The position numbers and the translations under genes are program-made. The notes beneath the pieces were generated by a model. That model was not told the origin of the DNA, ran no database searches, and saw only the letters and a program-made list of their open reading frames with translations. This document shows positions 34,290 to 58,689 of a stretch of 64,000 bases of DNA, in pieces (the first letter of the stretch is position 1; each line of letters opens with the position of its first letter). Source of the DNA: an uncultured Gammaproteobacteria bacterium (lineage in GTDB: Bacteria; Patescibacteriota; Microgenomatia; UBA8517); NCBI GenBank assembly GCA_964645605.1, contig CAZYCE010000003.1, positions 57,135 to 121,134 of the forward strand. The letters are read 5' to 3'.

Positions 34290-34518
34290 TTTTAATCACC
34301 TCCCTTCTTTACCAACAAAAAACCTCTCCGAAAGAGAGGTTTGAAAAAAACATTGCCAGTAAAAAATCGGCCAAATCTTTCCCTTTCGGGCTGGATTTAG
34401 CACCGTAATAAAAAACTTTTTACCCGGTTGCTGAGTGGATCAACGGGCCAGTGCCCTAACCACTACTCTAGATTTTTTGCCTTATGAGGTAATTATAATA
34501 CCAATTCTTCAAATTCTT

Positions 34519-34538
34519 CAAGGTATTTTTTTACCTTG
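34519..34538. promoter_or_regulatory. palindrome CAAGGTA-T7-TACCTTG
   Basis: Dyad related to the CAAGGTG-N-CACCTTG motif. A further half-site ttCAAGGTA lies at 34552. Confidence 0.35.
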
Positions 34539-34576
34539 CGGGGACTATTCTTTCAAGGTACTTTTCTAAAAATTAA

Positions 34577-34598
34577 TTTGAAGGTGGCACCTTGTGAA
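34577..34598. promoter_or_regulatory. palindromic site tttgAAGGTGgCACCTTgtgaa (motif copy 3)
   Basis: Same dyad as the copies at 10.5 and 10.9 kb. Confidence 0.4.
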
Positions 34599-34730
34599 TA
34601 AAAACACGGGCTATTTGAGGGATCGGGTCACTAGGGAGGTGCATATGCCGATTCGGTACCTCGGTCCGGACCCATTGTATCATTATAACTCTTGTCCCGC
34701 CCCAAGGCTAAATGAGAAAAATGAGACACC
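34595..34730. repeat. intergenic repeat family copy (D)
   Basis: ggctatttgaggg...gggtcactaggg...cctcggtccggacc...ccccaaggctaaatgagaaaaatgagaca. It shares blocks with copies at 37.3, 40.3 and 47.2 kb. Confidence 0.5.
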
Positions 34731-34780
34731 GTAAAGGAGTGATTGATTGTATTTTCAAGCTCGGATGGTAAAATTCAAAC

Positions 34781-36049
34781 ATGTCTACATCCGAAGGCAT
34801 TATTGAAAGATCGAGATTTGGGAAAAAGTTTATTAAACCACTTTATGATTCGTACTGTTTTTCAAATATTCCGGCAACCATTCAATCCCTTCTGGGTGTG
34901 ACAGGAAACACGGGGCTTCCCGGGGACGTTTTACCCTCAGGGGAATACAAGGAATACCAAAAAGTTGTTTTTCTCTTCATAGACGCTTTTGGCTGGAAGT
35001 TTTTCGAAAAATATAAAAATAAATATCCGGTTTTGCAAAGATTTGTAGATAAAGGAGTTGTTTCTAAAATTACTGCACAATTTCCGTCAACGACCGCGGC
35101 TGAGGTTACAACAATGAATACCGGATTATCGGTTGGGGAGAGCGGAGTTTATGAATGGTTTTATTATGAACCAAAACTTGATGCCGTTATCGCACCCCTC
35201 CTTTTTTCTTATGCGAAAGATGACGGACGGGGAACGTTGGCACAAACAGGTATTGATCCTGCCAAGCTATATCCAACAGAAACGTTATATGAAAAGCTTA
35301 AAAACCGAGGAGTTAAATCCAATCTTTTTCTCTCTTCCGAATTTGCGAATTCAGAGTACAACTTGGCTGTAGGTAGAGGCGCAAATATATATCCTTTTGG
35401 TTCGGTTGCAGAAGCCCTAACAAATCTTTCCGAAATGCTTGTTAAAGAGTCGGAAAAGTCTTATTTTTATTTCTATTACGGAAAGATTGACACAATGGGC
35501 CATGAATACGGAACAGAATCAAGATATTTTGAATCCGAAGTTGACCTTCTTTTTACCGCTTTGGAGCACATATTTATGAAGTTTGTTGAAGGAAAAGTTA
35601 AAGACACAATAATTCTTCTCAGTGCCGATCACGGCCAAACAAACGTGGACCCCAAAACAACCTTTTATTTAAACAGGGAAATTAAAGATATTTCCAAATA
35701 TCTGAAAACCGCCAAGAATGGCGAGGTGATTGTCCCGGCAGGGTCGTGCAGGGATATGTTTTTACATGTAAGGGAAAATTCTTTGGATGAGCTTTCCGGA
35801 ATACTTAATGAAAAATTGAAAGGGAAGGTTGAAATATATAAAGTCGAAAAACTTATCAAGGACGGATTCTTTGGCAGAAATATATCAAAAGAATTTACCG
35901 AGCGGGTCGGAAATCTTGTAATACTTCCGTATGCAGGAGAATCTGTTTGGTGGTATGAAGAAGGGGTTTTTGAACAAAAACATATAGGACATCACGGTGG
36001 CTTAACTCCGGAAGAAATGGAAATTCCATTTCTGGTTTTACCTATGTAG
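34781..36049 (+). CDS. alkaline-phosphatase-superfamily protein (type I phosphodiesterase / nucleotide pyrophosphatase family)
   Basis: FIDAFGW metal-ligand motif, FPSTTAAEVTTMNTG nucleophile region and LSADHGQ. Confidence 0.6.
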   Translation: MSTSEGIIERSRFGKKFIKPLYDSYCFSNIPATIQSLLGVTGNTGLPGDVLPSGEYKEYQKVVFLFIDAFGWKFFEKYKNKYPVLQRFVDKGVVSKITAQFPSTTAAEVTTMNTGLSVGESGVYEWFYYEPKLDAVIAPLLFSYAKDDGRGTLAQTGIDPAKLYPTETLYEKLKNRGVKSNLFLSSEFANSEYNLAVGRGANIYPFGSVAEALTNLSEMLVKESEKSYFYFYYGKIDTMGHEYGTESRYFESEVDLLFTALEHIFMKFVEGKVKDTIILLSADHGQTNVDPKTTFYLNREIKDISKYLKTAKNGEVIVPAGSCRDMFLHVRENSLDELSGILNEKLKGKVEIYKVEKLIKDGFFGRNISKEFTERVGNLVILPYAGESVWWYEEGVFEQKHIGHHGGLTPEEMEIPFLVLPM

Positions 36050-36089
36050 TTAATTCAACGGGGATTATATTGGATTATAAATCATCTCT

Positions 36090-36240
36090 TGTGCGATTTT
36101 TCCGAACAATAAACGTACCGTCCGGATGTTGGGAGAAAAAACTGGCGGTTTTGGAGGTATTTTTGGGCTCTTGAGGAATCTTGGTTGTTGGCCGCTGCCG
36201 AACGATTTGCACTGCAGCCTCGGCATCCGGCGATCCTAGA
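36090..36240. repeat. intergenic repeat family copy (H)
   Basis: Starts ctcttgtgcgattt. Contains ttttggaggtatttttgggctc and gctgccgaacgatttgcactgcagcctcggcatccgg. Confidence 0.5.
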
Positions 36241-37066
36241 GCCTATTTTTTCTTATTAAGTTACCGGTTGAGTCAAGTTCATCCAATCTTAAACGAAAAG
36301 TTTCCGTTGTTCCGTCCGGCATTCTTAAAATATCTTCCGCATTTGCCAAGAAAGACTTTGCCAAATCCGCACGTTCGGAATCCTTGTTTTTTGCGATATT
36401 ATCGGCAGTTCTTATTTCAATTCCCGATTTCCAAACTGCCCATGTATAATAATTATTTTCTTTTAGCCATTTCCCCTCATCTGAATCATCAAAATCTTTC
36501 AGAGTCTGTTGCGCCAAACCCAACCCCTCCTCAGTTTTACCTTGTTTTATTAGTGAGTAGGAAAGAAAACCAAGGAATTCTAATCTGTTAAATCTTTCCT
36601 CGGGTTTAGTTGATTGATCGAAATATTCAAGCCCTTTTCTGTAATGAGCTTCAGATTTTCCAAATTGTCCTTTATAATCCGCATACCTTCCTAAAAATCT
36701 ATACACCCTGGCTTTTATAACTGGGTCTAAATTTTCATCATTTCCTTCGGTATATTTTTCCATAGCTTTTGATGTGGTTTCCATGATAAATATTCCTTTG
36801 GCCGCTCTGAGTGGATTTGCTTTCAGTTTTTTGGCTTTTTCCTCCATAACCATATGTTGTGCGGAAAGGAACTCTTCTTGATAAAGCTGTACAAATGTGG
36901 ATGTTTCGCCCAATTTTTCCGCTTCTTCACGAACCTTGTGGATATAGGGAATCAGCACTTCCGAGGTACCCTTCTTTTCTCTTTCAATTGCAATCTGGGT
37001 TAAAATCGCCGGTAGATTTTCTTTGGTAATTATTTCCTGTTCAACGGAACGATCTTTGTTTTCCAC
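36236..37066 (-). CDS. hypothetical alpha-helical protein
   Basis: ORF with no strong motif. It may be TPR-like. Confidence 0.3.
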   Translation of the reverse strand: MENKDRSVEQEIITKENLPAILTQIAIEREKKGTSEVLIPYIHKVREEAEKLGETSTFVQLYQEEFLSAQHMVMEEKAKKLKANPLRAAKGIFIMETTSKAMEKYTEGNDENLDPVIKARVYRFLGRYADYKGQFGKSEAHYRKGLEYFDQSTKPEERFNRLEFLGFLSYSLIKQGKTEEGLGLAQQTLKDFDDSDEGKWLKENNYYTWAVWKSGIEIRTADNIAKNKDSERADLAKSFLANAEDILRMPDGTTETFRLRLDELDSTGNLIRKNRL

Positions 37067-37154
37067 GCAGAGATTTTATCACTAAGAGACTGGTGATATC
37101 AAGCAATAATAGCCTATAGGCCTACATTGTCCGAATCCTTTTTTGTCATGGATT

Positions 37155-37192
37155 GTGGAGTCGATTAGTTCGAATCTCACTTACCCTGCCAA
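37155..37192 (+). other. tRNA 3'-end-like fragment (GGAGTCGATTAGTTCGAATCTCACTTACCCTGCCA)
   Basis: TTCGAAT T-loop-like heptamer and terminal CCA. No matching 5' acceptor strand is present upstream, so this is a fragment, not a gene. Confidence 0.3.
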
Positions 37193-37269
37193 TCTCTATA
37201 CTTATAACTCAGCCCAAAAATGCTATGAGAAGAGCGAAATATTACTGGTACCAACTGATTGTTTTTAGT

Positions 37270-37500
37270 ATACGAAACAAAGATTCGAACAGAGGCTATT
37301 TGAGGGTAGAAAACCGTTATGACATCTTTGAGATGACATGTCAGCGGTTGCCGCTGTCATAACTCTCACTTTTGAAAATACCTTTGGGCTTTTTGGATCT
37401 TATGATCGCTTAGTGTCCAATCTTGCCGCGGGATAACGATTCTCACTGTAGTCTCAGCATTCAGATGTCGAAACAACCATAAGGTCTTTGGCCGTAAATA
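37270..37500. repeat. intergenic repeat family copy (C) with internal nested hairpins
   Basis: gattcgaacagaggctatttgagggtagaaaaccgttat...cttttgaaaatacctttgggcttt...gattctcactgtagtctcagcattcagatg. Confidence 0.5.
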
Positions 37501-37608
37501 TGTTATAATTCTAAGAATGGAATTCAGATTGAGTATAAATTATTGGTACAGCAGACCTCTCGGGGAGGCCTTGTTGACGTGAGTTAGAAACTCTAGGTGC
37601 AATAAGCA

Positions 37609-37632
37609 AACCTCCCAAACGGGAGGTTTTTT
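37609..37632 (+). terminator. hairpin cctccc-aaac-gggagg + T6 directly upstream of the racemase start; the 3' arm is the only SD-like sequence
   Basis: Perfect 6-bp stem followed by TTTTTT. The ATG lies at 37644. Confidence 0.4.
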
Positions 37633-37643
37633 AATGGAAAAAT

Positions 37644-38345
37644 ATGAAAAAGGTAGGAATCATCGGAGGGTTAGGGCCAGAAACTTCAGCAGAGTTTTGT
37701 CTGAATGTGGGTTTTGCGTGTTCAAAAGTAACCGAAGTCAGGCCTAATTTGTTAGTCTCAAATGTCGCGATCCCATTAAGAATTGAAAGTGAAATCATAA
37801 ACGGTGAAAGTAAAGAAAAAGTCTTGCCGCTTTTGATTGACTCCGCAAAACAGTTGGAAAAAGCCGGGGCTGATTTTATAGTGATTCCCTGCAACACGGT
37901 TCATGTTTTTATTGAAAATATAAGAAAATCTGTAAACGTTCCTGTTCTAAGTATTATAGAAGAAGCCGGTGATTTCTTGGCAGTAAAAAATGTAAAAAGA
38001 GTTGGACTTTTAGGAACTCAGACAACGATTAAAGAAAGGTTGTTTGACAAAATTTTGAAGGAAAATAAAGTCAAGGTAGTTACCCCGGAAATGTCGGATC
38101 AATTGGAATTGAGCCGGTTGATAGACCGTTTAGTTAAAAATTCTCACGGTAAAAACGATAAAGACATATTGCTAAAGATAATCGACAATCTAATAAAGAA
38201 GAATGTTGATTGCATCCTTTTGGCATGCACAGATTTACAACTTTTAGTTAAAAGTCATCACAAAATACAGATTTTCGACACACTCGGAATTCTTGAAATA
38301 GCGACAACCAGGGAAATAATCAGCAGGTCTCCGGATCTTTTATAG
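37644..38345 (+). CDS. Asp/Glu racemase family protein (aspartate-racemase-like)
   Basis: Two catalytic Cys contexts: IVIPCNTVH and LLACTDL. Confidence 0.8.
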   Translation: MKKVGIIGGLGPETSAEFCLNVGFACSKVTEVRPNLLVSNVAIPLRIESEIINGESKEKVLPLLIDSAKQLEKAGADFIVIPCNTVHVFIENIRKSVNVPVLSIIEEAGDFLAVKNVKRVGLLGTQTTIKERLFDKILKENKVKVVTPEMSDQLELSRLIDRLVKNSHGKNDKDILLKIIDNLIKKNVDCILLACTDLQLLVKSHHKIQIFDTLGILEIATTREIISRSPDLL

Positions 38346-38575
38346 GATAATTTGGTTCGAATCCTATGCTAGTCCTATGTTAGGGATAGAAAACGGATTC
38401 TACACTATCCCCAATATCCGGAGAGAGTTTTAAACAATATCTATCTGTATAATTCACTAAAAAACCCACTTTACAGTATTTAGCAAGAAAGATTGAGAAG
38501 TTCGAGAGTACTTGGTTATATAAGTGCCTGTCATGATTGAGCTTCCGAGTCCAGTACCATTTAGGCCCATATGTT

Positions 38576-38857
38576 CTAACTCCAAGTTGTCAGAAAGTAG
38601 CGGATATATTCCGATTGTCTGACACCGTCTAAATGGCTTTGGATTACCTCAGTTGTGAGCAGTAATGGTTTTTTGTTAGTATAATCACTGAATTTACCTC
38701 CTTTTGCCTTAAATTTGTTGTATTCAGTCCAGTCCACTTCGTATACTGGACTGTAACCGCTTTTTCCGTCTTTTTCCCAACGTCGGGCGTAAACATCATT
38801 TCTACCTCTGAAAAGAGATATAAATAGTTGGATTTGATCAAAAGTAGTTTTACCCAT
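38576..38857 (-). CDS. hypothetical ORF / possible gene fragment
   Basis: Two overlapping minus-strand ORFs in different frames in a 627-nt gap. This may be a frameshifted remnant. Confidence 0.2.
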   Translation of the reverse strand: MGKTTFDQIQLFISLFRGRNDVYARRWEKDGKSGYSPVYEVDWTEYNKFKAKGGKFSDYTNKKPLLLTTEVIQSHLDGVRQSEYIRYFLTTWS

Positions 38858-38972
38858 TGTCTATATGCCTGATTGTACCAAACGGTATCACTTTTCCCAT
38901 TTGGGCTTATGGCTTTGGAAAAATTCGGAAAGTGGCACTTGACAAAAAGTAGCACTTTCTGTAAAGTTATAG

Positions 38973-40157
38973 TTGCATATGTTCTACAGGCGCAAAATTT
39001 ACACAGAGCTTTTTTCTCACGCTCAAACTTCTCTCGTAACAGTCCTTACAGGCATGAGAAGGACCGGTAAAACTACCCTAATTCAGCAGCTTCTTTTGGA
39101 TATTCCCAACAAAAACTCGCTTTATCTTGATTTACAACGTCCCGATAATCGTGAGCTTTTCAATCAAAAGAACTATGAAGCAATCCGGGAAGCGTTTATT
39201 GCCAGAGGAATATCTGCTGAAGAGCCAATGGTCATAGCTCTAGACGAAATCCAATTAGCGCCGGAAAGTCCAAGTGCAATCAAATATCTATCAGATCACC
39301 ATAAAATCAAATTTATTGTTACTGGATCAAGTTCATATTATCTCAAAAATTTGTTTTCCGAATCTCTGTCCGGAAGAAAAAAGCTCTTTGAATTATACCC
39401 ATTAGACTTTGGAGAGTTTTTAACTTTTAAAAATATTTCTTTTTCTCAAACTAATTGGTCAAAGGGAACATTTAATGTTTCGGAGTTTAACCGTCTTTCT
39501 TCATATTACGAAGAATACGTCCGTTTTGGAGGTTTCCCCCAAGTGGTGCTTGCGGAGTCTGAGAACGATAAACGGGATTTGTTGTCAGATATTATGTCAT
39601 CTTATGTAAATATTGACATTCGCTCACTTGCTGACTTTTCAGATGAACGCAATTTGTATTCACTTGCCAAGCTTTTAGCCGAAAGAATTGGTAGTAGAGT
39701 GGAGTATTCCAAGTTATCGAGACTTACGGGAATATCCCGCCCAACTGTTACTAATTATATCTCTTTTTTTGAGAAGACTTATTTAATTAACACTATTCCT
39801 GTTTATACAAAAAGTGTTGATAGAGAAATCGTAAAATCCAGAAAACTTTATTTTTGCGATACTGGGCTTGCTAACATTCTGGCGGAACTTTCGAGCGGAG
39901 CCCAATTTGAAAATACCCTTTTTAATCAACTAGCCAGAATTGGACGAGTTCAATATTTTGCTCTCAAAACTGGGCATGAAATTGATTTTATATTAAATGA
40001 AGATCTGGCAATTGAAGTAAAAGAAACCCCTTTGGAAAATGATCTAACACATTTATCTCACATGGCAACCAGGGCCAAAGTACCAAACTTCAAACTTGTT
40101 GGGAGGTATCAATCTCCAAAGTTTACAAATTATGCGTGGGCAGGGTCAATATTGTAA
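38973..40157 (+). CDS. AAA-family ATPase (AAA_14 + DUF4143 architecture)
   Basis: Walker A GMRRTGKTT, Walker B IALDEIQ, and the C-terminal DUF4143-like region. Confidence 0.7.
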   Translation: MHMFYRRKIYTELFSHAQTSLVTVLTGMRRTGKTTLIQQLLLDIPNKNSLYLDLQRPDNRELFNQKNYEAIREAFIARGISAEEPMVIALDEIQLAPESPSAIKYLSDHHKIKFIVTGSSSYYLKNLFSESLSGRKKLFELYPLDFGEFLTFKNISFSQTNWSKGTFNVSEFNRLSSYYEEYVRFGGFPQVVLAESENDKRDLLSDIMSSYVNIDIRSLADFSDERNLYSLAKLLAERIGSRVEYSKLSRLTGISRPTVTNYISFFEKTYLINTIPVYTKSVDREIVKSRKLYFCDTGLANILAELSSGAQFENTLFNQLARIGRVQYFALKTGHEIDFILNEDLAIEVKETPLENDLTHLSHMATRAKVPNFKLVGRYQSPKFTNYAWAGSIL

Positions 40158-40159
40158 TA

Positions 40160-40490
40160 CGGGTAATCCCGTATACTACCCCTTGTGCGACGTATTCATA
40201 AGTAGGTCTAATTTAACTGACATAAACTAGTCGTTTCTGGCTCACAGAAAAGGGATTCGAACAGAGGTTTTTCGAGGGTAAACAACCGTTATAATCCTCG
40301 CTTTTGAAAATAGCACTATTGGAGGAAAACAAGGTCTTTTCGAGGGGACCGGGTCACTGAGGCTGCAAATGCTTGCTGAGCATCTCGGTCTAGTCTCATT
40401 CTATCCCATTTCTCAAAGAGAAGACATCTCGGGCTTCATCACATAACTCGTGTCTTACCCCAAGGCTAAATGAGACAGCATAAAAAGAAA
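40160..40490. repeat. intergenic repeat family, longest copy (A, ~310 nt)
   Basis: atactaccccttgtgcgacg...cataagtagg...gattcgaacagagg...ttttgaaaatagcactattggagg...gggtcactgaggctgcaaatgcttgctgagcatctcggtctag...ccccaaggctaaatgagacag. Confidence 0.55.
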
Positions 40491-40603
40491 ATCATTCTCG
40501 AGTTGGGCTGGAACTTGCTCGATTTTGTAGACAGAAGTCAAAAGACCCATTAAAATACTTAGCATTGCTAATATTTAGCATATTTAATATATAATAGGGA
40601 TTT

Positions 40604-41098
40604 ATGGACAGTCTTACATTACAAACAAAACAAATGAGCAAACTCCTACCCAAGATTGTTAGAGACCTGCGGATAGCTCGTCTAATTGATGAAGTAAAAC
40701 CGGGCTTAACTACATCTCAATTAATGATTCTTTTAATTTTAAAGGACACAAAAGGTGTTCCACTCCCTGTGGGAAAATTGGCTCAGGAGTTGAGCGTTTC
40801 TTTTCCATCAGTCAGTGGGATTGTTGATAGATTGCATAAAGAGAAACTTATTGAAAGAAGTCATAGTAGGAAGGATCGTCGCTTGGTGCTTGTGAAATTG
40901 ACAGATACGGGGAAAGACATCGTTGAAAAATTACTAAACGATTTTGAGAAACTCTTGTTTAATGTTCTTGAGAAAATGCCCGAAACAGAGCGGCGAACAG
41001 TCATGAAAGCGATTGAAAAAGTTTTCGAGTTTTCGGCCGCTTTATCTAAAAATGCTTATAACAAAGGGTCATCTTTATCAGAGGCGGATATAGATTAA
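40604..41098 (+). CDS. MarR-family transcriptional regulator
   Basis: Winged HTH: LTTSQLMILLIL...LAQELSVSFPSVSGIVDRLHKEKLIER...DRRLVLVKLTDTG. Confidence 0.7.
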   Translation: MDSLTLQTKQMSKLLPKIVRDLRIARLIDEVKPGLTTSQLMILLILKDTKGVPLPVGKLAQELSVSFPSVSGIVDRLHKEKLIERSHSRKDRRLVLVKLTDTGKDIVEKLLNDFEKLLFNVLEKMPETERRTVMKAIEKVFEFSAALSKNAYNKGSSLSEADID

Positions 41099-41120
41099 AA
41101 GGACCTTTATTTTATATAAA

Positions 41121-41828
41121 ATGAGCAAATCTCCTTCCAAACAAAAAGATCTACCCTACCATATTTGTTTTATTGTTGATGGTAATCGCCGTTGGGCAAA
41201 AGAAAAAGGCTTACCCGCATTTATGGGTCATAAAAAGGGTGCGGAGCGAATAGAGGAAATTGTCAAATACGCTCAAGACTTGGGTATAAAAATTGTTACT
41301 GTTTATGCTTTTTCGACCGAGAATTGGAAAAGATCTGAAAAAGAAGTTTCCTATTTAATGAACCTTTTTGAAAATTTTGCCATCAATAAAATGAAAGACG
41401 CGGAAAAACTGGGAATGAAAATAAGAGTTTTGGGCAATCTTCAGGATCTTCCTCTATCTTTACAAAAAGTTTTGAAAAAGGGAATGAAACTGACCGAGAA
41501 CAATCAAAAAATGATTGTCAATGCCGCCTTAAGTTACGGAGGTAGAGACGAAATTACCAGAACCTTCCGTAAATTGACAGTTTTAGGAGTTAAACCTGAA
41601 GAAATCACTGAAGATTTGATAAATCAAAACTTAGATACAGCCGGTTTACCCGATCCGGATTTTATTATCAGAACATCAGGTGAGCAGAGGCTTTCTAATT
41701 TTCTTCCCTGGCAAGCCACTTATTCAGAACTATATTTTCCTAGAGTCTATTGGCCGGACTTTGACAAAAGGCAGCTTGACATTGCCATTTTAGAATTTCA
41801 AATGCGCCAAAGGAGGTTGGGAAAATAA
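41121..41828 (+). CDS. uppS: undecaprenyl-diphosphate synthase (cis-prenyltransferase)
   Basis: HICFIVDGNRRWA, AFSTENWKR and RTSGEQRLSNFLPWQ signature blocks. Confidence 0.85.
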   Translation: MSKSPSKQKDLPYHICFIVDGNRRWAKEKGLPAFMGHKKGAERIEEIVKYAQDLGIKIVTVYAFSTENWKRSEKEVSYLMNLFENFAINKMKDAEKLGMKIRVLGNLQDLPLSLQKVLKKGMKLTENNQKMIVNAALSYGGRDEITRTFRKLTVLGVKPEEITEDLINQNLDTAGLPDPDFIIRTSGEQRLSNFLPWQATYSELYFPRVYWPDFDKRQLDIAILEFQMRQRRLGK

Positions 41829-43271
41829 ATGAAAACGAGAAGTATTTTTTATAAATACCCCAAGCTTTACATAAATGGCCTCAAGTGGATTCATAAAAGC
41901 AATTTTGCCAAACGTTATCAATATATGGCCGGTTTTGCCAAAAAAAACGATTTAGTTCTGGAACCTGCCTGTGGACCGGCAACATTGGCAGATTATCTTC
42001 CCAAAAGAGTTAAATATTGCGGCTTTGATACTAATAAGGAATTTATTAACTATGCCCTCAAAAAACATTTGGATGTCTTTCTGGGAAATGTTCTTGACCC
42101 AAAAAATTATTGTCAGGCAGATGTGGTTATTGCTTGCGATATTCTTCATCATTTGAACCCAGATGATAGACAAAAGTTTATTAAAAATTGTTTTGCATCT
42201 TCCAGAAAGGTGTTTATCATTTGCGAACCGGGAAAGAATAACGGGAAAAGAAATGGCGCTTTTTACTCTTTGAGGAAACGTCTGGCAGAGTGGAGCGAAA
42301 AAGATGGTACCGGAAATTTTAAGACCGAATATTTTTTAACCCGTAGCCAACTTCTTGGTCAAATTGAGTATGGTTTTGGCATCATTCCTTCATCGGTCGA
42401 AAGAAAAACTAAAAACTTTGGGGAAGATGTTGTGGCTGTCTTTTTCAAAGATAATAATTATTATCAAGAATTAAAAACGCAAAAAACCATTTCTGCTATT
42501 GTTCCTGTTTTTAATGAAGAAAAGACCGTTGCGGGTGTAATCGAGGTTCTATTAAAAAATCCTTTAATAAACGAGGTCATTTGTATAAACGACGGTTCTA
42601 CCGATAAAACCTTGATGGTTTTGGAGGATTATAAAGATAAAATTCAACTGATTAACTTTGATAAAAACAAAGGGAAAAGTTACGCTTTGGTTGAAGGAAT
42701 AAAGAGAGCTAAAGGAGAAATTGTCTCCTTTTTTGACGCCGATTTAACCAATCTTTCTGATGGTCATATAAATACCCTTCTCGAACCAGTTTTAGAAAAC
42801 AAATTTAGGGCCGTCTTAGGACATCCGTCAAATGGATGGGTGCCTGACGTTTTCTCAAACTTGACCGGTGAACGGGTGTATTACAGAAAAGACTTAATTC
42901 CTCATCTTGAAAAAATGGCTAAAACTAGGTTTGGGGTGGAAATTTTTTTGAATAACCTTTTTTCTGAAGAGGAAACAAAAAAGATTCCCCTTAAAAAGTT
43001 AAGAGGACTTTATAAATATGAGAAACGCAATTCAACAAATGCTTTTAAAGAATATCTTGGCGAAGCAGTAGAGATCGCTCAAGAAATTGGCAAAAGAGAA
43101 GGTTTACTCCCAGGGGACTATCAAATTATTGCCCAAATTTCCAAAGTAACTAATTTTAAAGAGTTAAAAGCTAAAATAGAAAATATTTCAAATAAAAATG
43201 TTCGACAATTTTTCGAAAAATATGTCTTGATATACATAAAAATTGCCCAACACTGGTGGAGTAATTTTTGA
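41829..43271 (+). CDS. bifunctional SAM-methyltransferase / family-2 glycosyltransferase (polyprenyl-phosphate glycosyltransferase-like)
   Basis: The N-terminal half carries LEPACGPATLADYL (MT motif I). The C-terminal half carries ISAIVPVFNEEKTV...CINDGSTDKT...FFDADL (GT2 DxD). Confidence 0.65.
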   Translation: MKTRSIFYKYPKLYINGLKWIHKSNFAKRYQYMAGFAKKNDLVLEPACGPATLADYLPKRVKYCGFDTNKEFINYALKKHLDVFLGNVLDPKNYCQADVVIACDILHHLNPDDRQKFIKNCFASSRKVFIICEPGKNNGKRNGAFYSLRKRLAEWSEKDGTGNFKTEYFLTRSQLLGQIEYGFGIIPSSVERKTKNFGEDVVAVFFKDNNYYQELKTQKTISAIVPVFNEEKTVAGVIEVLLKNPLINEVICINDGSTDKTLMVLEDYKDKIQLINFDKNKGKSYALVEGIKRAKGEIVSFFDADLTNLSDGHINTLLEPVLENKFRAVLGHPSNGWVPDVFSNLTGERVYYRKDLIPHLEKMAKTRFGVEIFLNNLFSEEETKKIPLKKLRGLYKYEKRNSTNAFKEYLGEAVEIAQEIGKREGLLPGDYQIIAQISKVTNFKELKAKIENISNKNVRQFFEKYVLIYIKIAQHWWSNF

Positions 43272-43282
43272 GATATCAGGTT

Positions 43283-43455
43283 TGAAATTACCCTTTGTGC
43301 GATTTCTCTGGACCGCGAGCGCATCGTCCGAACGTTTTGGTTTCAAAACAGCCATTTTGAAGGTGTTATTGGGCTATTCCAGGCTTCACGGTCACACGGG
43401 CGCACTGCTTGGCTGAGTATCATGTCTAGACAGGTTTAGACTCATAAGTAGGAAA
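43283..43455. repeat. intergenic repeat family copy (G)
   Basis: ccctttgtgcgattt...cattttgaaggtgttattgggctatt...cacggtcacacgggcgcactgcttggctgagtatcatgtctagac...ctcataagtagg. Confidence 0.5.
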
Positions 43456-43460
43456 GTGTA

Positions 43461-43667
43461 TTGTGTAATTACAGGTATACATTACAACTTCTTCTATTTC
43501 TTTTGCAACAAGACATCAATCCCAACACAAAGGTTTGGGATATTAGAGACTATGCGAGATATGTTCTAACAAACAAAAACATTGAAGAAAAACGGGAGTT
43601 ATTTAGCCTTTTCAATTATCCATTATTTATCCAAGACAAAAACGTTACTTCACTTCGAGCACATTGA
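43461..43667 (+). pseudogene. remnant homologous to the C-terminal tail of the recombinase fragment at 58.2-58.5 kb
   Basis: DINPNTKVWDIRDYARYVLTNKNIEEKREL parallels NINPDKIPFDFREYAKYTLTRGTTPDKREI at 58206..58508. Confidence 0.4.
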
Positions 43668-43682
43668 CAACAACCCACTGAA

Positions 43683-44501
43683 ATGGTTTGTTTGTTGATA
43701 TATAATTATTTTATAAATAAGACAATAAAAGGTAATCCTGTTCTGGCACAGATAAATACAATATCTGCATACTTGTGGTTTGTTTCAGTTATTGTTTTTT
43801 CTGTCTCCATCTTCACCCAAACTTTTGGATGGTTCGGACATGAATCTTGTACATGGTTACCAGATTGTGGTGACAATAAATTGCTGGTTTGGACATTAAT
43901 TTCTCTTGGTTTGGGAATTTTATCATTTATTGTTATGTTAATTTCTGGCATTTTAAGAAAAGTGCTTAAGGGGCAAAAATGGAACGCACCGTTTAGAATC
44001 GGTGCTGGGAAGATTTCTATTCTAGCAATTTTTGTCTTAATGATCTCGCTTGCTTATTTTGTGATTATGGGTAGGATGGTGCAGGGTACTGATTCTACGT
44101 TAGATGGTCAACACATTTGGGATGCCGTCAACGTCTACAGGAAAGAAAATGGTGTTTCTGAATTACAGCAAAACGAACTTCTTTGCAATAATCTTGTAGC
44201 AAGATGGAAGCAATTTAACGAAGAAAACAATCATGATGGTTTTGAGCCCTGGTTAAAAGAATATGTCTATCCATTCGATACTTCTCACAAGTTAAAATCA
44301 GTTGCAGAGGACTACGTGGGAGGTATTAAAACAGCTGCTGGAGCCATAGTTAAATGGAAAGAATCACCAGGACATAACCTTTCACTTCTTGATCCAAAGT
44401 ACAATATTGGTTGTGCATATGCAGGAACAATACCCGGGACGGGAGGAATAGACACTGATTACGGTACTGCGATCATTATTTTAGGCGAACTTCAAAAATA
44501 G
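43683..44501 (+). CDS. membrane protein with C-terminal CAP/SCP (YkwD-like) domain
   Basis: Four TM segments. The extracellular part carries VNVYRKENGV...WKESPGHNLSLLDPKYNIGCAYAG (CAP motifs). Confidence 0.5.
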   Translation: MVCLLIYNYFINKTIKGNPVLAQINTISAYLWFVSVIVFSVSIFTQTFGWFGHESCTWLPDCGDNKLLVWTLISLGLGILSFIVMLISGILRKVLKGQKWNAPFRIGAGKISILAIFVLMISLAYFVIMGRMVQGTDSTLDGQHIWDAVNVYRKENGVSELQQNELLCNNLVARWKQFNEENNHDGFEPWLKEYVYPFDTSHKLKSVAEDYVGGIKTAAGAIVKWKESPGHNLSLLDPKYNIGCAYAGTIPGTGGIDTDYGTAIIILGELQK

Positions 44502-44544
44502 ATATTTATAAAGGACTGCTCATGGTTTTTGGAGAAAGGATCCG

Positions 44545-44700
44545 GATAGTGGTTTTTCGAGGGTAAACAACCGTTATAATCCTCGCTTTTGAAAATAGCA
44601 CTATTGGAGGAAAATAAGGGCTTTTCGAGAGGACGGGGTCACTGAGGCTGTAAATGCTTGCTGCTCGTGAGTGATTCTCACTACGGCTTCAACATTCAGG
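44545..44700. repeat. intergenic repeat family copy (B), ~90% identical to the core of copy A
   Basis: gtttttcgagggtaaacaaccgttataatcctcgcttttgaaaatagcactattggaggaaaataagggcttttcgagaggacggggtcactgaggctgtaaatgcttgctg. Confidence 0.6.
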
Positions 44701-45801
44701 CGCCCACTTGACTTTAATCGTATCATTTTGATACGATTACTGTATATGAATGATACGAAACTTAACTCTCGCCAAAAACAAATCCTTGAGCTCATAGCAA
44801 AATCGAATGGTCTTTCCCGATTGCAAATTAAGGGAAAACTAGCTGACCAATTTCAGGCTTCTATTCCTACTATCGCACGGGATCTGACTTATTTGTTAAA
44901 AAACAAATTTATTATAGTCCATGGTGACGGTAGAAATACCAACTATTCTGGAATCAATGTTTCCCCTCTCCTTAAATATTTTGATATTGACCAATATTTT
45001 TCCGTTGGGCCAGATCAAAGAACTAATGTCAAGAAAAATTTTGATTTTGGCATATTTAATAATCTTACAAAGCTGTTTACTCCAGTAGAATTATCTGGTC
45101 TGGCTCGGATTTATAAGAATTTTGACACAGAAAGTAAAATTGCCAATAAAGATGTCTATTTAAAAGAAGTTGAGAGATTTGTTATCGAACTTTCTTGGAA
45201 ATCCTCAAAGATTGAGGGCAACACCTATTCTCTTCTGGATACGGAAACTTTAATCAAACAAGAGGTGGAAGCAGAAGGACACTCCAGAGAAGAAGCTGTT
45301 ATGATTTTGAATCACAAAAGTGCCTTTGAAATCATATTGGAAAATCGGAAAGACTACCGAGAAATATCTTTCTCTCAAATCACTCAACTTCACAATATTT
45401 TAGTAAAAGGTCTGAATGTTACGACTGGAATTAGAAAACAAGCGGTGGGGATTACAGGGACAGTTTATCAACCATTAAGTAACGAGTGGCAAATTCAGAA
45501 AGCTATGGACAAGTTTGTTATTGTTTTAAATCATTCTACCCATCCACTAGAAAAAGCTCTAATAACAATTGCTATGATTTCGTATATTCAGCCATTTACT
45601 GACGGAAATAAGAGAACAGCCAGAATGCTGGCTAACGCGGTTTTGCTGGCTAATGATTATTACCCACTTTCCTACAGGAGTGTGGATGAAACCTTTTATA
45701 AAAAGGCTCTGGTTTTATTTTACGAGCAGAACAGTCTCTATTATCTAAAGCAAATTATTTTGGACCAGTATAAATTTGCGTTAAACACTTATTTCAAGTA
45801 G
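44671..45801 (+). CDS. Fic-family protein (AMPylase-type) with N-terminal HTH
   Basis: Fic motif IQPFTDGNKRTARML (HxFx[DE]GNGRxxR, with H replaced by Q). Confidence 0.75.
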   Translation: MILTTASTFRRPLDFNRIILIRLLYMNDTKLNSRQKQILELIAKSNGLSRLQIKGKLADQFQASIPTIARDLTYLLKNKFIIVHGDGRNTNYSGINVSPLLKYFDIDQYFSVGPDQRTNVKKNFDFGIFNNLTKLFTPVELSGLARIYKNFDTESKIANKDVYLKEVERFVIELSWKSSKIEGNTYSLLDTETLIKQEVEAEGHSREEAVMILNHKSAFEIILENRKDYREISFSQITQLHNILVKGLNVTTGIRKQAVGITGTVYQPLSNEWQIQKAMDKFVIVLNHSTHPLEKALITIAMISYIQPFTDGNKRTARMLANAVLLANDYYPLSYRSVDETFYKKALVLFYEQNSLYYLKQIILDQYKFALNTYFK

Positions 45802-46524
45802 TTTGATAAGTTTTTCCTCCCAGCCGAAACATGTTTTCCTCCCTTTCAAATTCCTAAATTCCTTTTTGCATTCGGGATCAATTTTTGCAAATTCGATGAG
45901 CACATCTATCACCTCTTCAATAAACCCCCCAACAGTTCCTTCAGAGTCGTCAACTCCACTCTGAAGTTTTTTATCCAGACGGAGTAAGAGCTCAATTATT
46001 AAATCTGTAGTTTGTACACTAATCGGCAATTTACTAATTAGTGTTGAAAGTCTATTAACACCTTCGGTTAAAGAATTCTGATATGCAAACCAAGTTTTTG
46101 AAGGCCCCGAATAATATTTAATAAAACTGATAGCGTAGGTTATTTCTTTCTTGATATTTTTTAACTCGTTGTTGGTTAATTGGCCAATATTTCCGCTGGC
46201 ACTTGGTTTAGTAATCTGAATCTTATCACCTGTCTTTATCTTCTTTCCCCTTAGAATTCCGTAAATTGCTGTAGCGACCATATGTTTACAAAGGGTGTTG
46301 TTTTGGCCCAAATAGCACTCACACATTCCTGAATCATATTTTTGAGTGGATACTGATACGCGGTAAGGTTGACTACCCAAGACCGTTGATATAAAAGTAT
46401 AACCGTTATCTTTGAACTCGGTCACCTTCCCACCTTCATACAAAATTATGGCTTTTTGAAAAGTGTCTTCGTCAACTCCGTACTTAATCTTTTCTAAATC
46501 GTATTTGGGAATTGTGAGAACCAT
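45781..46524 (-). CDS. SWIM-zinc-finger protein
   Basis: CECYLGQNNTLCKH (CxCx(n)CxH). Convergent with fic and overlapping it by 21 nt. Confidence 0.45.
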   Translation of the reverse strand: MVLTIPKYDLEKIKYGVDEDTFQKAIILYEGGKVTEFKDNGYTFISTVLGSQPYRVSVSTQKYDSGMCECYLGQNNTLCKHMVATAIYGILRGKKIKTGDKIQITKPSASGNIGQLTNNELKNIKKEITYAISFIKYYSGPSKTWFAYQNSLTEGVNRLSTLISKLPISVQTTDLIIELLLRLDKKLQSGVDDSEGTVGGFIEEVIDVLIEFAKIDPECKKEFRNLKGRKTCFGWEEKLIKLLEISV

Positions 46525-46599
46525 TTGATATCAACTTGTATTATATTCCAATAAGGATAAAAAAGACTGTCATACGGTCTTTATCCTGACAACGAGCGT

Positions 46600-46720
46600 A
46601 CGGTACGAGAATTTGGTATTTAAAATAGCACTTTTGAAGGTATTGTTGGGCTTATTTAGGCATTACGGTCACTGGGGTGCCCTGTTTGGCTGAGCATCTC
46701 GGTCTAGGACCATTCGAGCC
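46600..46720. repeat. intergenic repeat family copy (F)
   Basis: tagcacttttgaaggtattgttgggcttatttaggcattacggtcactggggtgccctgtttggctgagcatctcggtctaggaccattcgagcctataa. Confidence 0.55.
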
Positions 46721-46746
46721 TATAAACAATTATTTAAAAATTATTC

Positions 46747-47121
46747 TTACAACGAGTTTATATAGGTGGCAGCCACCAATAAAAATTCGGGATGTTCCTC
46801 GGTGACAAGATGGTCTCCAGGCAAATAAGGTTTTATACCATGCCCGACCATCGTCTTAGACAAAACCTCCTTAAGTACGTCTGCCTGGTTTTCACTTAAA
46901 TCTACATCTTTATTACATAATTCGAGTAATCTTAACTTCTCTCTGGCAGAAAGTTCCTGTAATTGTTCTGATACCTGTGTGTCAGTTATGGTTCCATCTG
47001 GGGGGATATTTCTAAACTTAATACCATCGGTAAATTTTCCCAACAGAGGTTTTTCGTTTTTTACTTGTGCATACTTCTCTGCAAAAGAAGTGTTTGCTAA
47101 TGCTTTTTCTTCGTTATCCAT
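46747..47121 (-). CDS. hypothetical protein
   Basis: ORF only. Confidence 0.3.
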   Translation of the reverse strand: MDNEEKALANTSFAEKYAQVKNEKPLLGKFTDGIKFRNIPPDGTITDTQVSEQLQELSAREKLRLLELCNKDVDLSENQADVLKEVLSKTMVGHGIKPYLPGDHLVTEEHPEFLLVAATYINSL

Positions 47122-47179
47122 TTTATCTCACCCCCTTTCCTTAAAAATTTCATCTTGGTTCGTAAATTGAGACTGAGCT

Positions 47180-47290
47180 CGTTTTATTTGCTTGGCTGAG
47201 CAGTGTGGTCTCGGACCATTCAGACCCATAACTGATTACTCCAAGTGTATCACACTCGAGGCTAAATGAGACAGATGAGACACTATAAAA
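47180..47290. repeat. intergenic repeat family copy (E)
   Basis: tgcttggctgagcagtgtggtctcggaccattcagacccataactg...ctcgaggctaaatgagacagatgagaca. Confidence 0.5.
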
Positions 47291-47413
47291 AGGGAATGTC
47301 TTAAATAACAGACCTGATGTAGTTTGATATACTAACTAATTCGGGTATGTTTCATTACAATTTAAGTACAGCAATTAATAGCAAGAATTAGAAAACGTGA
47401 GTAAAATATAGCT

Positions 47414-54759: not shown

Positions 54760-54790
54760 ACAAATGGTTGTGATCCGCATACTACCCCTT
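54760..54790. repeat. intergenic repeat family fragment (K): atactaccccttgtgcgacg, 20/20 identical to the 5' end of copy A
   Basis: Exact 20-mer shared with 40171-40190. Confidence 0.5.
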
Positions 54791-54964
54791 GTGCGACGCT
54801 GAATTAGGTCAGTTTCTTTTTGTCTTCATAGAGTTTCATCCGATGTTTTTTACTGTATTCCAAAGCAGGATTGGTGAATCCCTTCTTGGCAATAAATTTA
54901 ACAACACCTTTTCTATTACTCACCATTTCTTATCACCACCTTATTATATTTATCCTAAGGATAT

Positions 54965-56865: not shown

Positions 56866-57120
56866 TTGAAATCTAAAATAGCACCGGAAGTTAAATCAGA
56901 AGTTTTAGGGAAAATTAAAGGTGGAGAAAGTGTTGCTTCATTAGCTGAAAAGTTTGGTATCTCAGTCAAAACAATATATGGCTGGTTAAGATGGGAAACT
57001 ACAAACAAGGTAAGTTGGATGGAATATTCAAGGCTAAAGAAGGAGAATCAAACATTAAAAGAGATTGTTGGAGTTCTTACACTGGAGCTTCAGAAGTCAA
57101 AAAAAAAGACAATTAATTGA
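56866..57120 (+). CDS. IS3 transposase OrfA (HTH)
   Basis: SVASLAEKFGISVKTIYGWLR HTH and a leucine-zipper-like C-terminus. Confidence 0.8.
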   Translation: MKSKIAPEVKSEVLGKIKGGESVASLAEKFGISVKTIYGWLRWETTNKVSWMEYSRLKKENQTLKEIVGVLTLELQKSKKKTIN

Positions 57121-57952: not shown

Positions 57953-57969
57953 AAGGGGTACTTGACACC

Positions 57970-58507
57970 CGCCACTAACCAGTAAAGAAATATTTGATAA
58001 AGTACAGAGGAATTTAGTAATACCTTTTCAAAAAGCCAAATGGGGCAGCAAAACATTTACATTTAAAGACCTTGCTGTCTGTGGAAGCTGTGGAGCCGTA
58101 TTCGTAGCAGAAGATAAATATGGAAAAAGTAAATTCAGAGAGCCAAAATATCACGTCTACAACCACTGCACCAGAAGAAGAGATCCAAACTGTCCTGAAC
58201 CGTATGTGACTGAAGAAAAGCTCGTTAAAGAGCTGGTAAGGTATATTAACTTCACAACCGTAGCCCATCCACAGATGATTCACTATACAGAAAAGATCAA
58301 GTTTGGCATGGAACAGTACAAAAAACTGAGAAACGAGATATTTATCCAACAGAACATTAATCCAGATAAAATACCGTTTGATTTTAGAGAATATGCAAAA
58401 TACACCCTTACCCGAGGAACAACACCGGATAAAAGAGAAATCATTAACGCCTTGGGAGGCATTATTTACATCCACAATCAAATGGTTTGTTCAGCTCCGT
58501 CAAAATA
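57970..58507 (+). pseudogene. C-terminal remnant of a large serine recombinase (zinc beta-ribbon + tail), truncated at the IS3 right end
   Basis: The frame reads ...LAVCGSCGAVFVAEDKYGKSKFREPKYHVYNHCTRRRDPNCPEPYVTEEKLVKELV... (CxxC...C...C ribbon). The ORF 58206..58508 is its tail. No N-terminal catalytic domain is present. Confidence 0.45.
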
Positions 58508-58689
58508 AACACAACCTTCCTCCACGGTTCGAATCCAAATTGACGGGTTAACATGGATTAGAACACGTTTAGCTCAACACTAAAAAATCGAGCGTAGTTA
58601 TAGGTCCGATACATTTGACTAAAAATCAAGCTTTTAGAGGGCATTATTGGAATGAATAAACATCTCGATCAGAGGCTATAGAGTATTTA

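What the first reader, a model, noticed from the sequence alone, without database searches (positions are those of the whole stretch)
34290..47413. Mosaic intergenic repeat family (~100-310 nt, >=10 copies or fragments) separating cassette-like genes
Almost every intergenic spacer between 34.3 and 47.3 kb carries a recognisable but divergent copy. Related copies lie at 15.0, 17.7 and 54.8 kb.

The shared blocks, in order, are:
- atactaccccttgtgcgacg (20/20 identical at 40171 and 54765);
- cataagtagg;
- gattcgaacagagg;
- ttttgaagg/aaaat...ttgggct;
- cggtcac(t/a)nggg...tgcttggctgagcatctcggtctag;
- gaccattc.agcc.ataa;
- ccaaggctaaatgagaca.

Copies A and B are ~90% identical over ~110 nt. Other copies share only subsets, hence mosaic.

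Several blocks contain hairpins whose stems covary between copies. Examples are gcaatgctt/aagcattg (17.7 kb), ggtc-tag-gacc versus ggtc-tcg-gacc versus ggtcc/ggacc, and ccggacg/cgtccgg. This pattern suggests an RNA- or recombination-site-level constraint.

The genes in between are unrelated cargo: a phosphodiesterase, a racemase, an AAA ATPase, a MarR-UppS-GT module, a CAP protein, fic, and a SWIM protein. The layout resembles a cassette array, but there is no integron integrase and the repeats are not attC-like. A tRNA 3' fragment and two recombinase remnants also lie in this region.
Basis: seen in the sequence. Interest (0 to 1): 0.7.

Follow-up and report, generated by a model that had tools for sequence, protein, structure and literature searches.

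The report
Relics of stacked integrative elements
The repeats are real. They are most likely the conserved non-coding ends of mobile elements that a serine recombinase inserted, one after another, next to a tRNA-Gln gene in a tiny-genome (CPR/Microgenomates) bacterium, leaving a decayed stack of gene cassettes rather than an RNA family.

Summary
The repeat family is real. Eight to ten copies lie at 34.5-47.3 kb, with more at 17.7 and 58.6 kb. All are on the + strand and collinear with a ~330-nt reference copy at 40173-40490.

It is not a structured RNA: there is no Rfam match, no fold-energy signal and no compensatory pairs on either strand.

The same ~135-200-nt core ('S') occurs in Microgenomates (Patescibacteria) MAGs and metagenome contigs. 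There its 3' end abuts, tail to tail, the 3' end of tRNA-Gln. In several independent contigs an intact ~400-aa large serine recombinase (LSR) gene ends just upstream of S.

The window shows this layout at 57966-58761: an LSR remnant cut by an IS3 element, then S, then tRNA-Gln(CTG). A second LSR remnant lies at 43512-43658.

A close relative (L023) has tRNA-Gln with no S and no LSR. S is better conserved than the adjacent tRNA, and the two similarity patterns disagree. The window's copies fall into at least four lineages.

Best reading: a composite island built by repeated LSR-mediated integration at tRNA-Gln, then eroded by deletions. This is a new variant of a known kind, comparable to SCC composite islands and tycheposon islands.

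An integron-like system of recombinase-less cassettes is not excluded.

The parts
34577..34741 (+). Copy W34: second half of the core (C2), a D(iii)-like hairpin module and the E module, upstream of the phosphodiesterase gene
   Evidence: nhmmer. Its C2 is closest to L010 (82%), not to any window copy.
36086..36246 (+). Copy W36: CTCTTGTGCGA motif, a divergent type-2 S and a D(ii) module
   Evidence: Type-2 profile E 1.9e-5.
37115..37195 (+). Two tandem tRNA-3'-end-like fragments (module A, ...GTTCGAATCTCACTTACCCTGCCA)
   Evidence: Sequence. The same motif precedes S in L003-L008 and L016.
37189..37468 (+). Copy W37: B extension, C1 (with a 25-nt insertion), C2 and a degenerate tRNA-Gln-like tail. 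It heads the racemase cassette.
   Evidence: nhmmer E 4e-44. Its C2 is closest to the L020 copy, which sits next to an intact LSR. The S-leader-racemase unit is shared with L006.
40173..40490 (+). Copy W40, the longest: 20-mer/CCCTTGTGCGA, B, C1, C2, junction TGCTTGCTG, D(iii) and E
   Evidence: E 2e-67. 86% identical to L006a over 174 nt.
43292..43440 (+). Copy W43: CCTTTGTGCGA, type-2 S and D(iii)
   Evidence: E 1e-22.
43512..43667 (+). Remnant 2 of a large serine recombinase (last ~49 aa)
   Evidence: BLASTP against remnant 1. tblastn with full-length LSRs: best hit P0024, 55%, E 5e-12.
44487..44709 (+). Copy W44: C1, C2 and D(ii). It runs into the annotated GTG start of the Fic ORF.
   Evidence: (E 3e-55).
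46581..46739 (+). Copy W46: type-2 S, junction TGTTTGGCTGAGCA and D(iii)
   Evidence: E 3e-23.
47188..47342 (+). Copy W47: junction, D(iii) and E only
17650..17839 (+). Outlying copy W17: end of C2, junction hairpin, D(iii) and E, upstream of a radical-SAM gene
   Evidence: E 2e-10 against W47.
54779..54810 (+). Solo 20-mer ATACTACCCCTTGTGCGACG. It may be the left boundary of the tRNA-proximal element.
   Evidence: The same motif lies about 0.7 kb upstream of the LSR remnant in L014.
57065..57952 (+). IS3-family transposase (rve) whose insertion truncates the LSR gene
   Evidence: Pfam rve, 89 bits.
57966..58508 (+). Remnant 1 of a large serine recombinase (C-terminal 180 aa: Zn ribbon, coiled coil and C-terminus)
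   Evidence: Pfam Zn_ribbon_recom, 27.3 bits. 73% identical to aa 219-398 of the full-length LSR P0013.
58603..58693 (+). Type-2 S copy abutting tRNA-Gln (the anchor junction)
   Evidence: Type-2 profile E 1.9e-8. Homologous to L014 3150-3258.
58690..58761 (-). tRNA-Gln(CTG), the inferred integration target
   Evidence: ARAGORN and Rfam.

Best explanation
**Proposed explanation**
- The repeats ('S') are the conserved non-coding terminal region of a family of integrative elements found in Microgenomates (Patescibacteria/CPR) bacteria.
- These elements encode a ~400-aa large serine recombinase (LSR) at one end.
- S is the stretch between the LSR stop codon and the recombination junction at the 3' end (discriminator/CCA) of tRNA-Gln.
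- The last ~30-40 nt of S (ACGGTCAC..GGGGTGCA..TTGG|CTG) would be the recombinase-bound half-site.
- The alternative modules that follow TGGCTG are either the tRNA-Gln body or the other ends of neighbouring elements (D(ii), or D(iii) plus E).

**How the array forms**
- Successive elements integrated at the same tRNA-Gln.
- Each newcomer pushed older elements away from the tRNA.
- Deletions then removed recombinase genes and parts of S.
- The result is a 24-kb (possibly 44-kb) stack of cargo genes separated by same-orientation, differently truncated S copies.

**Shown**
- The repeat family and its single orientation.
- S abutting tRNA-Gln in other genomes.
- The LSR-S-tRNA-Gln order in other genomes.
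- LSR remnants in the window.
- An S-less relative.
- S and tRNA histories that disagree.
- Several S lineages within the window.

**Inferred**
- That the LSR catalyses the insertion, and where it crosses over.
- That an occupied junction can be targeted again.
- That recombinase-less cassettes move with a recombinase supplied in trans.
For: 1. **S abuts tRNA-Gln elsewhere.** The S core abuts the 3' end of an opposite-strand tRNA-Gln in L003, L006, L007, L008, L010, L011, L012, L014, L019, L020 and L026. The window has the same junction at 58603-58761.
2. **Intact LSR genes end just upstream of S.** Resolvase+Recombinase+Zn_ribbon genes end 30-660 nt upstream of S in L016/L017, L019 (a prophage-like context with a terminase) and L020/L021. 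LSR remnants precede S in the window (twice), L013, L014 and L015.
3. **A candidate empty site exists.** In L023 (Lon 88% identical to the window's), tRNA-Gln sits 27 nt from a DUF1003 gene, with no S and no LSR.
4. **S and the tRNA have different histories.** S averages 81% identity across six loci against 73% for the adjacent tRNA-Gln, and the patterns are discordant. L010-L011 score 88% vs 69%; L003-L011 score 80% vs 94%. This places a recombination boundary between S and the tRNA.
5. **The window's copies were acquired separately.** They fall into at least 4 lineages, and W34 and W37 are closer to copies in other genomes than to any window copy. The two LSR remnants also belong to different lineages.
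6. **Other contigs show cassette arrays.** Arrays with about 0.9-1.2-kb spacing and single-gene cassettes occur in L005, L006 and L008. The S-leader-racemase unit lies next to tRNA-Gln in L006 but 21 kb from it in the window.
7. **No long tRNA direct repeats.** This is expected for serine recombinases.
8. **There is precedent.**
   - SCC composite islands with 6-8 integration-site copies and ccr-less elements (PMC3900703).
   - tRNA islands built by successive integrations, with fragmented integrases, in Prochlorococcus (bioRxiv 10.1101/2020.12.28.424599).
Against: - No intact LSR lies in the 64-kb window, and no excision or circular form has been observed.
- The other boundary (attL) of any single element was not mapped.
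- The conserved region (135-330 nt) is much longer than the ~50 bp an LSR att site needs. Modules A, B and C1 (which holds an invariant GTTATAAT) and module E have no assigned role.
- For canonical phage LSRs an attR junction is not a substrate. Repeated insertion at the same junction needs the element arm to resemble the native arm, or an SCC/TndX-like tolerance, and this was not shown.
- S copies also flank housekeeping genes in L004 (LeuRS).
- D(iii)/E modules occur in the opposite orientation in L025, which has no tRNA-Gln within the 22-kb locus fetched.
- L010-L012 have S next to tRNA-Gln with no recombinase nearby.
Confidence: 0.65

Rival explanations
1. S is a portable homology region. 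Cassettes are gained, lost and shuffled by RecA-dependent homologous recombination between S copies, for example Campbell-type insertion of circular DNA that carries an S. The recombinase genes are bystanders or only the original founders.
For: - S is long (135-330 nt) and 80-96% identical between genomes. That is enough for homologous recombination and much more than an LSR site needs.
- All copies are direct repeats.
- Copies are chimeric or mosaic.
- Assembly contigs break at S (L001, L005, L016, L026).
Against: - Window copies are only 45-77% identical to one another apart from one pair, which is too divergent for efficient RecA exchange now.
- The tight, repeated LSR-S-tRNA-Gln order in independent lineages points to site-specific insertion.
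- The sharp switch of sequence at TGGCTG in all copies fits a fixed crossover point, not variable homologous crossovers.
Confidence: 0.15
2. S, or part of it, is a functional cis-regulatory or small-RNA element, such as an outward promoter or 5' leader that drives the downstream cassette gene. It is repeated because each cassette needs it.
For: - S is more conserved than the neighbouring tRNA.
- It contains an invariant GTTATAAT, with TTGAGGG 12 nt upstream, in all 15 aligned copies.
- Most cassette genes lie downstream on the same strand.
- The E module sits 40-110 nt upstream of same-strand gene starts at four window sites and in L004 and L025.
Against: - No Rfam family matches.
- MFE z-scores are -0.9 and -0.07.
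- Consensus folds are -4.7 and -3.7 kcal/mol with no compensatory pairs.
- The TTGAGG-TATAAT spacing is 12 nt, not 16-18, and the promoter scan finds no excess.
- In single-copy loci S points into the 3' end of tRNA-Gln, not into a gene.
- This reading is compatible with the main explanation and is not really an alternative to it.
Confidence: 0.12
3. S is a non-autonomous transposable element (MITE/BIME/BOX-like) that spreads through intergenic regions.
For: - It has a modular, mosaic make-up and sits only in intergenic DNA.
- There are many copies within 13 kb.
- Some copies lie away from tRNA-Gln (17.7 kb; L004; L025).
Against: - No terminal inverted repeats or target-site duplications were seen.
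- All window copies share one orientation and one chromosomal neighbourhood.
- The complete Woesebacteria chromosome behind L011 matched the search pattern once, and that match lies next to tRNA-Gln. Only an 8-kb locus of that chromosome was read, and the exact pattern misses divergent copies.
- The only transposase is an unrelated IS3.
Confidence: 0.05

Closest known systems
SCC composite islands at rlmH (orfX) in staphylococci (Ccr large serine recombinases)
   Same: - A serine-recombinase-type integration at the 3' end of one conserved gene.
- Tandem stacks of elements and remnants, many lacking the recombinase.
- Units separated by repeated integration-site sequences in direct orientation (PMC3900703: 6-8 ISS copies, psi-SCC elements without ccr).
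   Different: - The target here is tRNA-Gln, not rlmH.
- The repeated unit is 135-330 nt, not a 15-18-bp ISS.
- The recombinase is a single ~400-aa LSR, not a CcrAB pair.
- The host is a CPR bacterium.
- Mobility has not been demonstrated.
Tycheposon-built tRNA genomic islands of Prochlorococcus
   Same: - A streamlined genome with a tRNA-anchored hypervariable island.
[quoted passage not shown]
- Fragmented integrases and partial tRNAs as relics.
- A minority of tycheposons carry an LSR (bioRxiv 10.1101/2020.12.28.424599).
   Different: - Most tycheposons use tyrosine recombinases and are bounded by partial-tRNA direct repeats.
- Here the repeated sequence lies outside the tRNA, and no long tRNA repeat is present.
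- No replication module is intact; only an AEP primase fragment remains.
Integron cassette arrays
   Same: Same-orientation, mostly single-gene cassettes, each carrying one copy of a recombination-associated repeat. The array is anchored at one end. Cassettes lack their own recombinase.
   Different: - No IntI tyrosine recombinase is present.
- The repeat is not an attC-type imperfect palindrome (no dyad or fold signal).
- The repeat lies upstream of its gene rather than downstream.
- The anchor is a tRNA gene.
Phage-type large serine integrases (phiC31, Bxb1, TP901-1) and LSR transposases (TnpX/TndX)
   Same: The domain architecture Resolvase+Recombinase+Zn_ribbon_recom, the int gene adjacent to the att site, and one prophage-like context (L019).
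   Different: - The proteins are about 400 aa, at the short end for LSRs.
- To my knowledge (not checked in the literature here), characterised LSRs mostly target protein-coding genes, so a tRNA 3' end would be an uncommon target.
- The att sites are undefined.

Membership tests
Integron (IntI / attI / attC cassette array) | IntI-type tyrosine recombinase adjacent to the array | tested here: not met
   Pfam scans of the window ORFs found no Phage_integrase domain (ORFs of 34-50 kb and 54-62.8 kb; ten selected ORFs of 19.5-33.8 kb). The only recombinase signals are serine-type remnants and an IS3 rve.
Integron (IntI / attI / attC cassette array) | attC: a 57-141-nt imperfect palindrome that folds as a single strand | tested here: not met
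   S has no consensus hairpin on either strand. The fold z-scores are -0.9 and -0.07.
Large-serine-recombinase integrative element | Resolvase + Recombinase + Zn_ribbon_recom protein encoded next to the att junction | tested here: met
   Intact in L016/L017, L019 and L020/L021, directly upstream of S. Only C-terminal remnants are present in the window itself.
Large-serine-recombinase integrative element | Junctions share only a short core, with no long direct repeats of the target | tested here: met
   No tRNA-Gln repeat longer than 12-14 nt was found in 8 of the 9 loci searched. The exception is L011, which has a 20-nt duplicate of the tRNA-Gln 5' end at 4883-4902. All copies switch sequence after TGGCTG.
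Large-serine-recombinase integrative element | Occupied and empty target sites in related genomes | tested here: inconclusive
   L023 has tRNA-Gln without S or LSR. No pair of otherwise collinear occupied and empty genomes, and no attL, was mapped.
Large-serine-recombinase integrative element | Recombinase-dependent integration and excision at defined attP and attB sites | not testable with these tools
   This needs an in vitro or in vivo recombination assay, or read-level detection of circular junctions.
tRNA-anchored genomic island built by tandem accretion | Intact tRNA at one end, relics of integrases and att sequences inside, and variable content between relatives | tested here: met
   tRNA-Gln at 58690-58761, two LSR remnants and at least 9 S relics. 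The relatives L006, L014, L023, L025 and L026 differ on the S side of tRNA-Gln, while the Lon side is syntenic in L014, L023 and L026. L006 shares no Lon-side synteny with the window, and no tRNA-Gln was found in the 22-kb L025 locus.
Structured non-coding RNA family (Rfam or novel) | Match to a curated covariance model, or a conserved structure supported by compensatory changes | tested here: not met
   Rfam at gathering and E-value thresholds finds nothing on the repeats. There are 0 compensatory pairs, and the named hairpins do no better than shuffles.
MITE / BIME / BOX-type dispersed repeat | Terminal inverted repeats and target-site duplications, with dispersal in both orientations | tested here: not met
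   All copies are on the + strand and clustered. No TIR or TSD was seen.

The most novel reading that the evidence does not exclude
S-bounded units are a working gene-cassette system of CPR bacteria. Single genes, each carrying its own ~200-300-nt S site, would be captured and reshuffled at tRNA-Gln by a large serine recombinase supplied in trans. The site may also carry an outward promoter. This would be a serine-recombinase analogue of the integron, in organisms otherwise thought poor in mobile DNA.
Probability: 0.2. Interest if true: 0.8.

Novelty: new variant of a known kind. Interest (0 to 1): 0.5.

Why it matters
CPR/Patescibacteria have genomes of about 1 Mb and few recognised mobile elements. 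How they acquire accessory genes such as defence, cell-surface and Fic-type toxin genes is largely unknown.

A tRNA-Gln-anchored hotspot, served by one recombinase family and marked by a sequence better conserved than the tRNA itself, would help in three ways:
- It gives a concrete, searchable signature for horizontal gene flow in these organisms.
- It provides a marker for assembly breaks and strain-level variation.
- It offers a set of compact (~400 aa) serine integrases with a predictable natural target, which may be of practical use.

Tried and rejected
1. **Known RNA family.** Rfam at gathering and E-value thresholds on the window and on six related loci found only a SAM riboswitch and tRNAs.
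3. **Decayed protein-coding gene.**
   - Six-frame translations show recurring peptides such as CLAEHLGLGPFEPI, but every frame has stops.
   - Pfam finds nothing at E up to 10.
4. **Phage or plasmid origin.** blastn against the phage and plasmid collections and three viral-contig pattern scans gave no hits.
5. **Sigma-70 promoter or terminator enrichment.** Counts are no higher than in shuffles.
6. **Long tRNA-Gln direct repeats as island boundaries.** None was found, apart from a 20-nt duplicate of the 5' end in L011.
7. **Modules A and D(iii) as real tRNA halves.** They have T-loop-like GGTYCGAA and ...CCA ends, but no consistent T-stem, and ARAGORN does not call them.
8. **ParB_N-Recombinase ORFs (L015, P0012) as the true enzyme.** The Recombinase domain is truncated at the fusion point, so they are more likely deletion chimeras.
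9. **First genome-collection scan.** The scan with the C1 block found nothing. The second scan, with the C2 junction block, succeeded.

Full report
**1. The observation**

The window is 38.5% G+C.

  - 40247-40378 vs 44532-44663 is 91.7% identical over 132 nt (E 6e-48).
  - 43336-43421 vs 46612-46698 is 78% identical (E 1e-11).
  - 17731-17837 vs 47189-47295 is 70% identical (families D1-D3, D5, D8, D10, D15).
- nhmmer searches started from single copies connect nine places: 17.65, 34.58, 36.09, 37.24, 40.16, 43.33, 44.52, 46.58 and 47.19 kb.
- Every hit is on the + strand, and every hit is collinear with the longest copy (40173-40490).
- 'Mosaic' therefore means different truncations of one ~330-nt template, plus alternative 3' modules.
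- The exact 20-mer is at 40173 and 54779.

**2. Not an RNA and not a dead gene**

- Rfam finds only a SAM riboswitch (34370-34478, - strand) and two tRNAs.
- The 331-nt copy folds no better than shuffles (z = -0.9 on + and -0.07 on -).
- With 15 copies from several genomes the consensus fold is -4.7 kcal/mol with no compensatory pair. The reverse strand gives -3.7 kcal/mol, also with none.
- All six reading frames contain stops, and Pfam finds nothing.

**3. The family outside this genome**

- A degenerate 22-mer from the best-conserved block hit six metagenome contigs, L003-L008.
- Each holds one or two copies of a ~200-nt core with nhmmer E-values of 1e-23 to 1e-38. Copies are about 0.9-1.2 kb apart in L005, L006 and L008.
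- A second block hit four MAG contigs, including Ca. Woesebacteria and Ca. Shapirobacteria.
- The window's Lon protease is 83-85% identical to its named Microgenomates and Woesebacteria homologues (Patescibacteria-group entries, 80-81%), so the organism is a CPR bacterium.

**4. The key anatomy**

- In L003, L006, L007, L008, L010, L011 and L012 the 3' end of the core runs into the 3' end of a tRNA-Gln(CTG) gene on the opposite strand.
- I call the core S and divide the unit into modules:
  - A: + strand tRNA-3'-end-like fragments.
  - B: a ~65-nt extension.
  - C1: contains an invariant GTTATAAT.
  - C2: ...GGGTCAC..GGGGTGCATATGC.
  - The junction TGGCTG, which is the reverse complement of the tRNA-Gln end CAGCCA.
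  - D: the tRNA-Gln body, or D(ii), or D(iii).
  - E: often present after D.
- All copies share sequence up to TGGCTG and diverge after it.

**5. The recombinase**

- Window 57966-58505 (+) encodes the C-terminal 180 aa of a large serine recombinase.
  - Pfam Zn_ribbon_recom scores 27.3 bits.
  - It is cut off by an IS3 transposase at 57065-57952.
- 43512-43658 is a second, shorter remnant.
- A profile search found about 400-aa full-length proteins with Resolvase+Recombinase+Zn_ribbon.
  - P0013 is 73% identical to remnant 1.
  - Remnant 2 is closest to P0024, at 55%.
- Their contexts repeat one order.
  - L020/L021: LSR, 30 nt of spacer, S (C2), tRNA-Gln(CTG).
  - L019: LSR, one ORF, S, tRNA-Gln(TTG), with a terminase, a methylase and an HTH gene upstream.
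  - L016/L017: LSR, an A-like fragment, S, then the start of a tRNA at the contig end.
- Remnants precede S in L013, L014 and L015. L014 is syntenic with the window.
- A profile of these recombinase-adjacent ('type 2') S copies finds window 58603-58693, exactly against tRNA-Gln at 58690-58761.
- The window therefore carries the canonical unit LSR(remnant)-S-tRNA-Gln at the right end of the array, and all other S copies point the same way.

**6. S belongs to the elements, not to the host**

- The closest long relative, L023 (Lon 88% identical), has tRNA-Gln 27 nt from a DUF1003 gene, with no S and no LSR. L026 has S at that position.
- Across six loci S averages 81% identity against 73% for the abutting tRNA-Gln, and the two matrices disagree.
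- Within the window, C2 copies form at least four lineages. W34 is nearest to L010 (82% against at most 68% inside the window), and W37 is nearest to the L020 copy.
- L006a is 86% identical to W40, while the adjacent racemase proteins are only about 57% identical.
- These facts argue for separate acquisitions of related elements, not local duplication.

**7. Mechanism (inferred)**

- Elements carrying an LSR at one end integrate at the 3' end of tRNA-Gln.
- S is their recombinase-proximal arm, and D/E is the other arm.
- Newcomers insert next to the tRNA and displace older units.
- IS insertion and deletions then erode recombinase genes and parts of S.
- The short single-gene units in L005, L006 and L008, and the shared S-leader-racemase unit, suggest that recombinase-less units persist and may be moved in trans. 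The racemase unit is next to tRNA-Gln in L006 but 21 kb from it in the window.
- There is precedent in SCC composite islands (PMC3900703) and in tycheposon islands (10.1101/2020.12.28.424599).

**8. What remains open**

- No attL or empty/occupied pair was mapped, and no activity was shown.
- The conserved tract is far longer than an LSR site.
- The roles of A, B, C1 and E are unexplained, as is the TTACCCYTTGTGCGA motif (36086, 40180, 43292, 54786 and L014).
- E lies 40-110 nt upstream of same-strand gene starts, so a promoter or leader role is possible.
- S-like pieces also occur away from tRNA-Gln (17.7 kb; L004 next to LeuRS; L025).
- Homologous recombination between S copies may contribute.

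**9. Verdict**

The RNA interpretation is rejected and the recombination-site interpretation is supported. The region is a decayed, tRNA-Gln-anchored composite island of serine-recombinase elements in a Microgenomates genome: a new variant of a known kind, and moderately interesting.

Noticed in passing
window 34370-34478 (-) and 33867-34289 (-): A SAM (S-box) riboswitch just above Rfam's gathering score (45.3 vs 44.4 bits) in a CPR genome. It sits in front of a 140-aa ORF with no Pfam or PHROG match.
   Followed up: no
window 37496-37643; L006 1973-2132: A conserved ~130-nt leader with a terminator-like hairpin (..cctcccaaacgggaggtttttt) in front of the Asp/Glu racemase gene in both genomes. 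Rfam Phe_leader matches weakly (24.9 and 32.1 bits, below the gathering score of 55). It may be an attenuator.
   Followed up: partly
window 38576-38857 (-): A fragment of an archaeo-eukaryotic primase of the TOTE conflict-system type (Pfam AEP-TOTE, 70 bits). It probably comes from another decayed element.
   Followed up: no
L015 2330-3103; proteins P0012 and P0108: ORFs that fuse a ParB_N domain to a truncated LSR Recombinase domain, seen in three samples. They are probably deletion chimeras, but they recur.
   Followed up: partly
L011 4883-4902: A 20-nt exact duplicate of the 5' end of tRNA-Gln, about 40 nt upstream of the intact gene in a Woesebacteria chromosome. This points to a second kind of recombination event at this tRNA.
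   Followed up: no
window 36086, 40180, 43292, 54786; L014 2072: The motif (T)TACCCYTTGTGCGA recurs on the + strand just after upstream genes and before S. Five matches were found, and 0 of 100 shuffles reach that number. Its role is unknown; it may be an element boundary.
   Followed up: partly
window 17801-17837, 34685-34741, 40443-40490, 47259-47342; L004 6706-6810; L013 2955-3109; L025 830-940 and 1666-1783: The E module (CCCCAAGGCTAAATGAGACAG..GAGACAC.ATAAA) is conserved across genomes. It usually lies 40-110 nt upstream of a gene on the same strand, so it may be a promoter or leader.
   Followed up: partly
window 18000-34000: The region left of the array also looks accessory. It holds radical-SAM and TPP enzymes, three SAM methyltransferases in a row, a C5 DNA methylase, a PD-(D/E)XK nuclease and an EVE-domain protein. 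The island may extend to about 15 kb.
   Followed up: partly
window 500-2700: Repeats with a period of about 985 nt lie inside two adjacent large - strand ORFs (37-1968 and 1952-3793). These are presumably paralogous genes.
   Followed up: no
window 44671 (GTG start of the Fic ORF): Copy W44 and its D(ii) module extend to 44709, so the true start of the Fic gene is probably downstream of the listed GTG.
   Followed up: no
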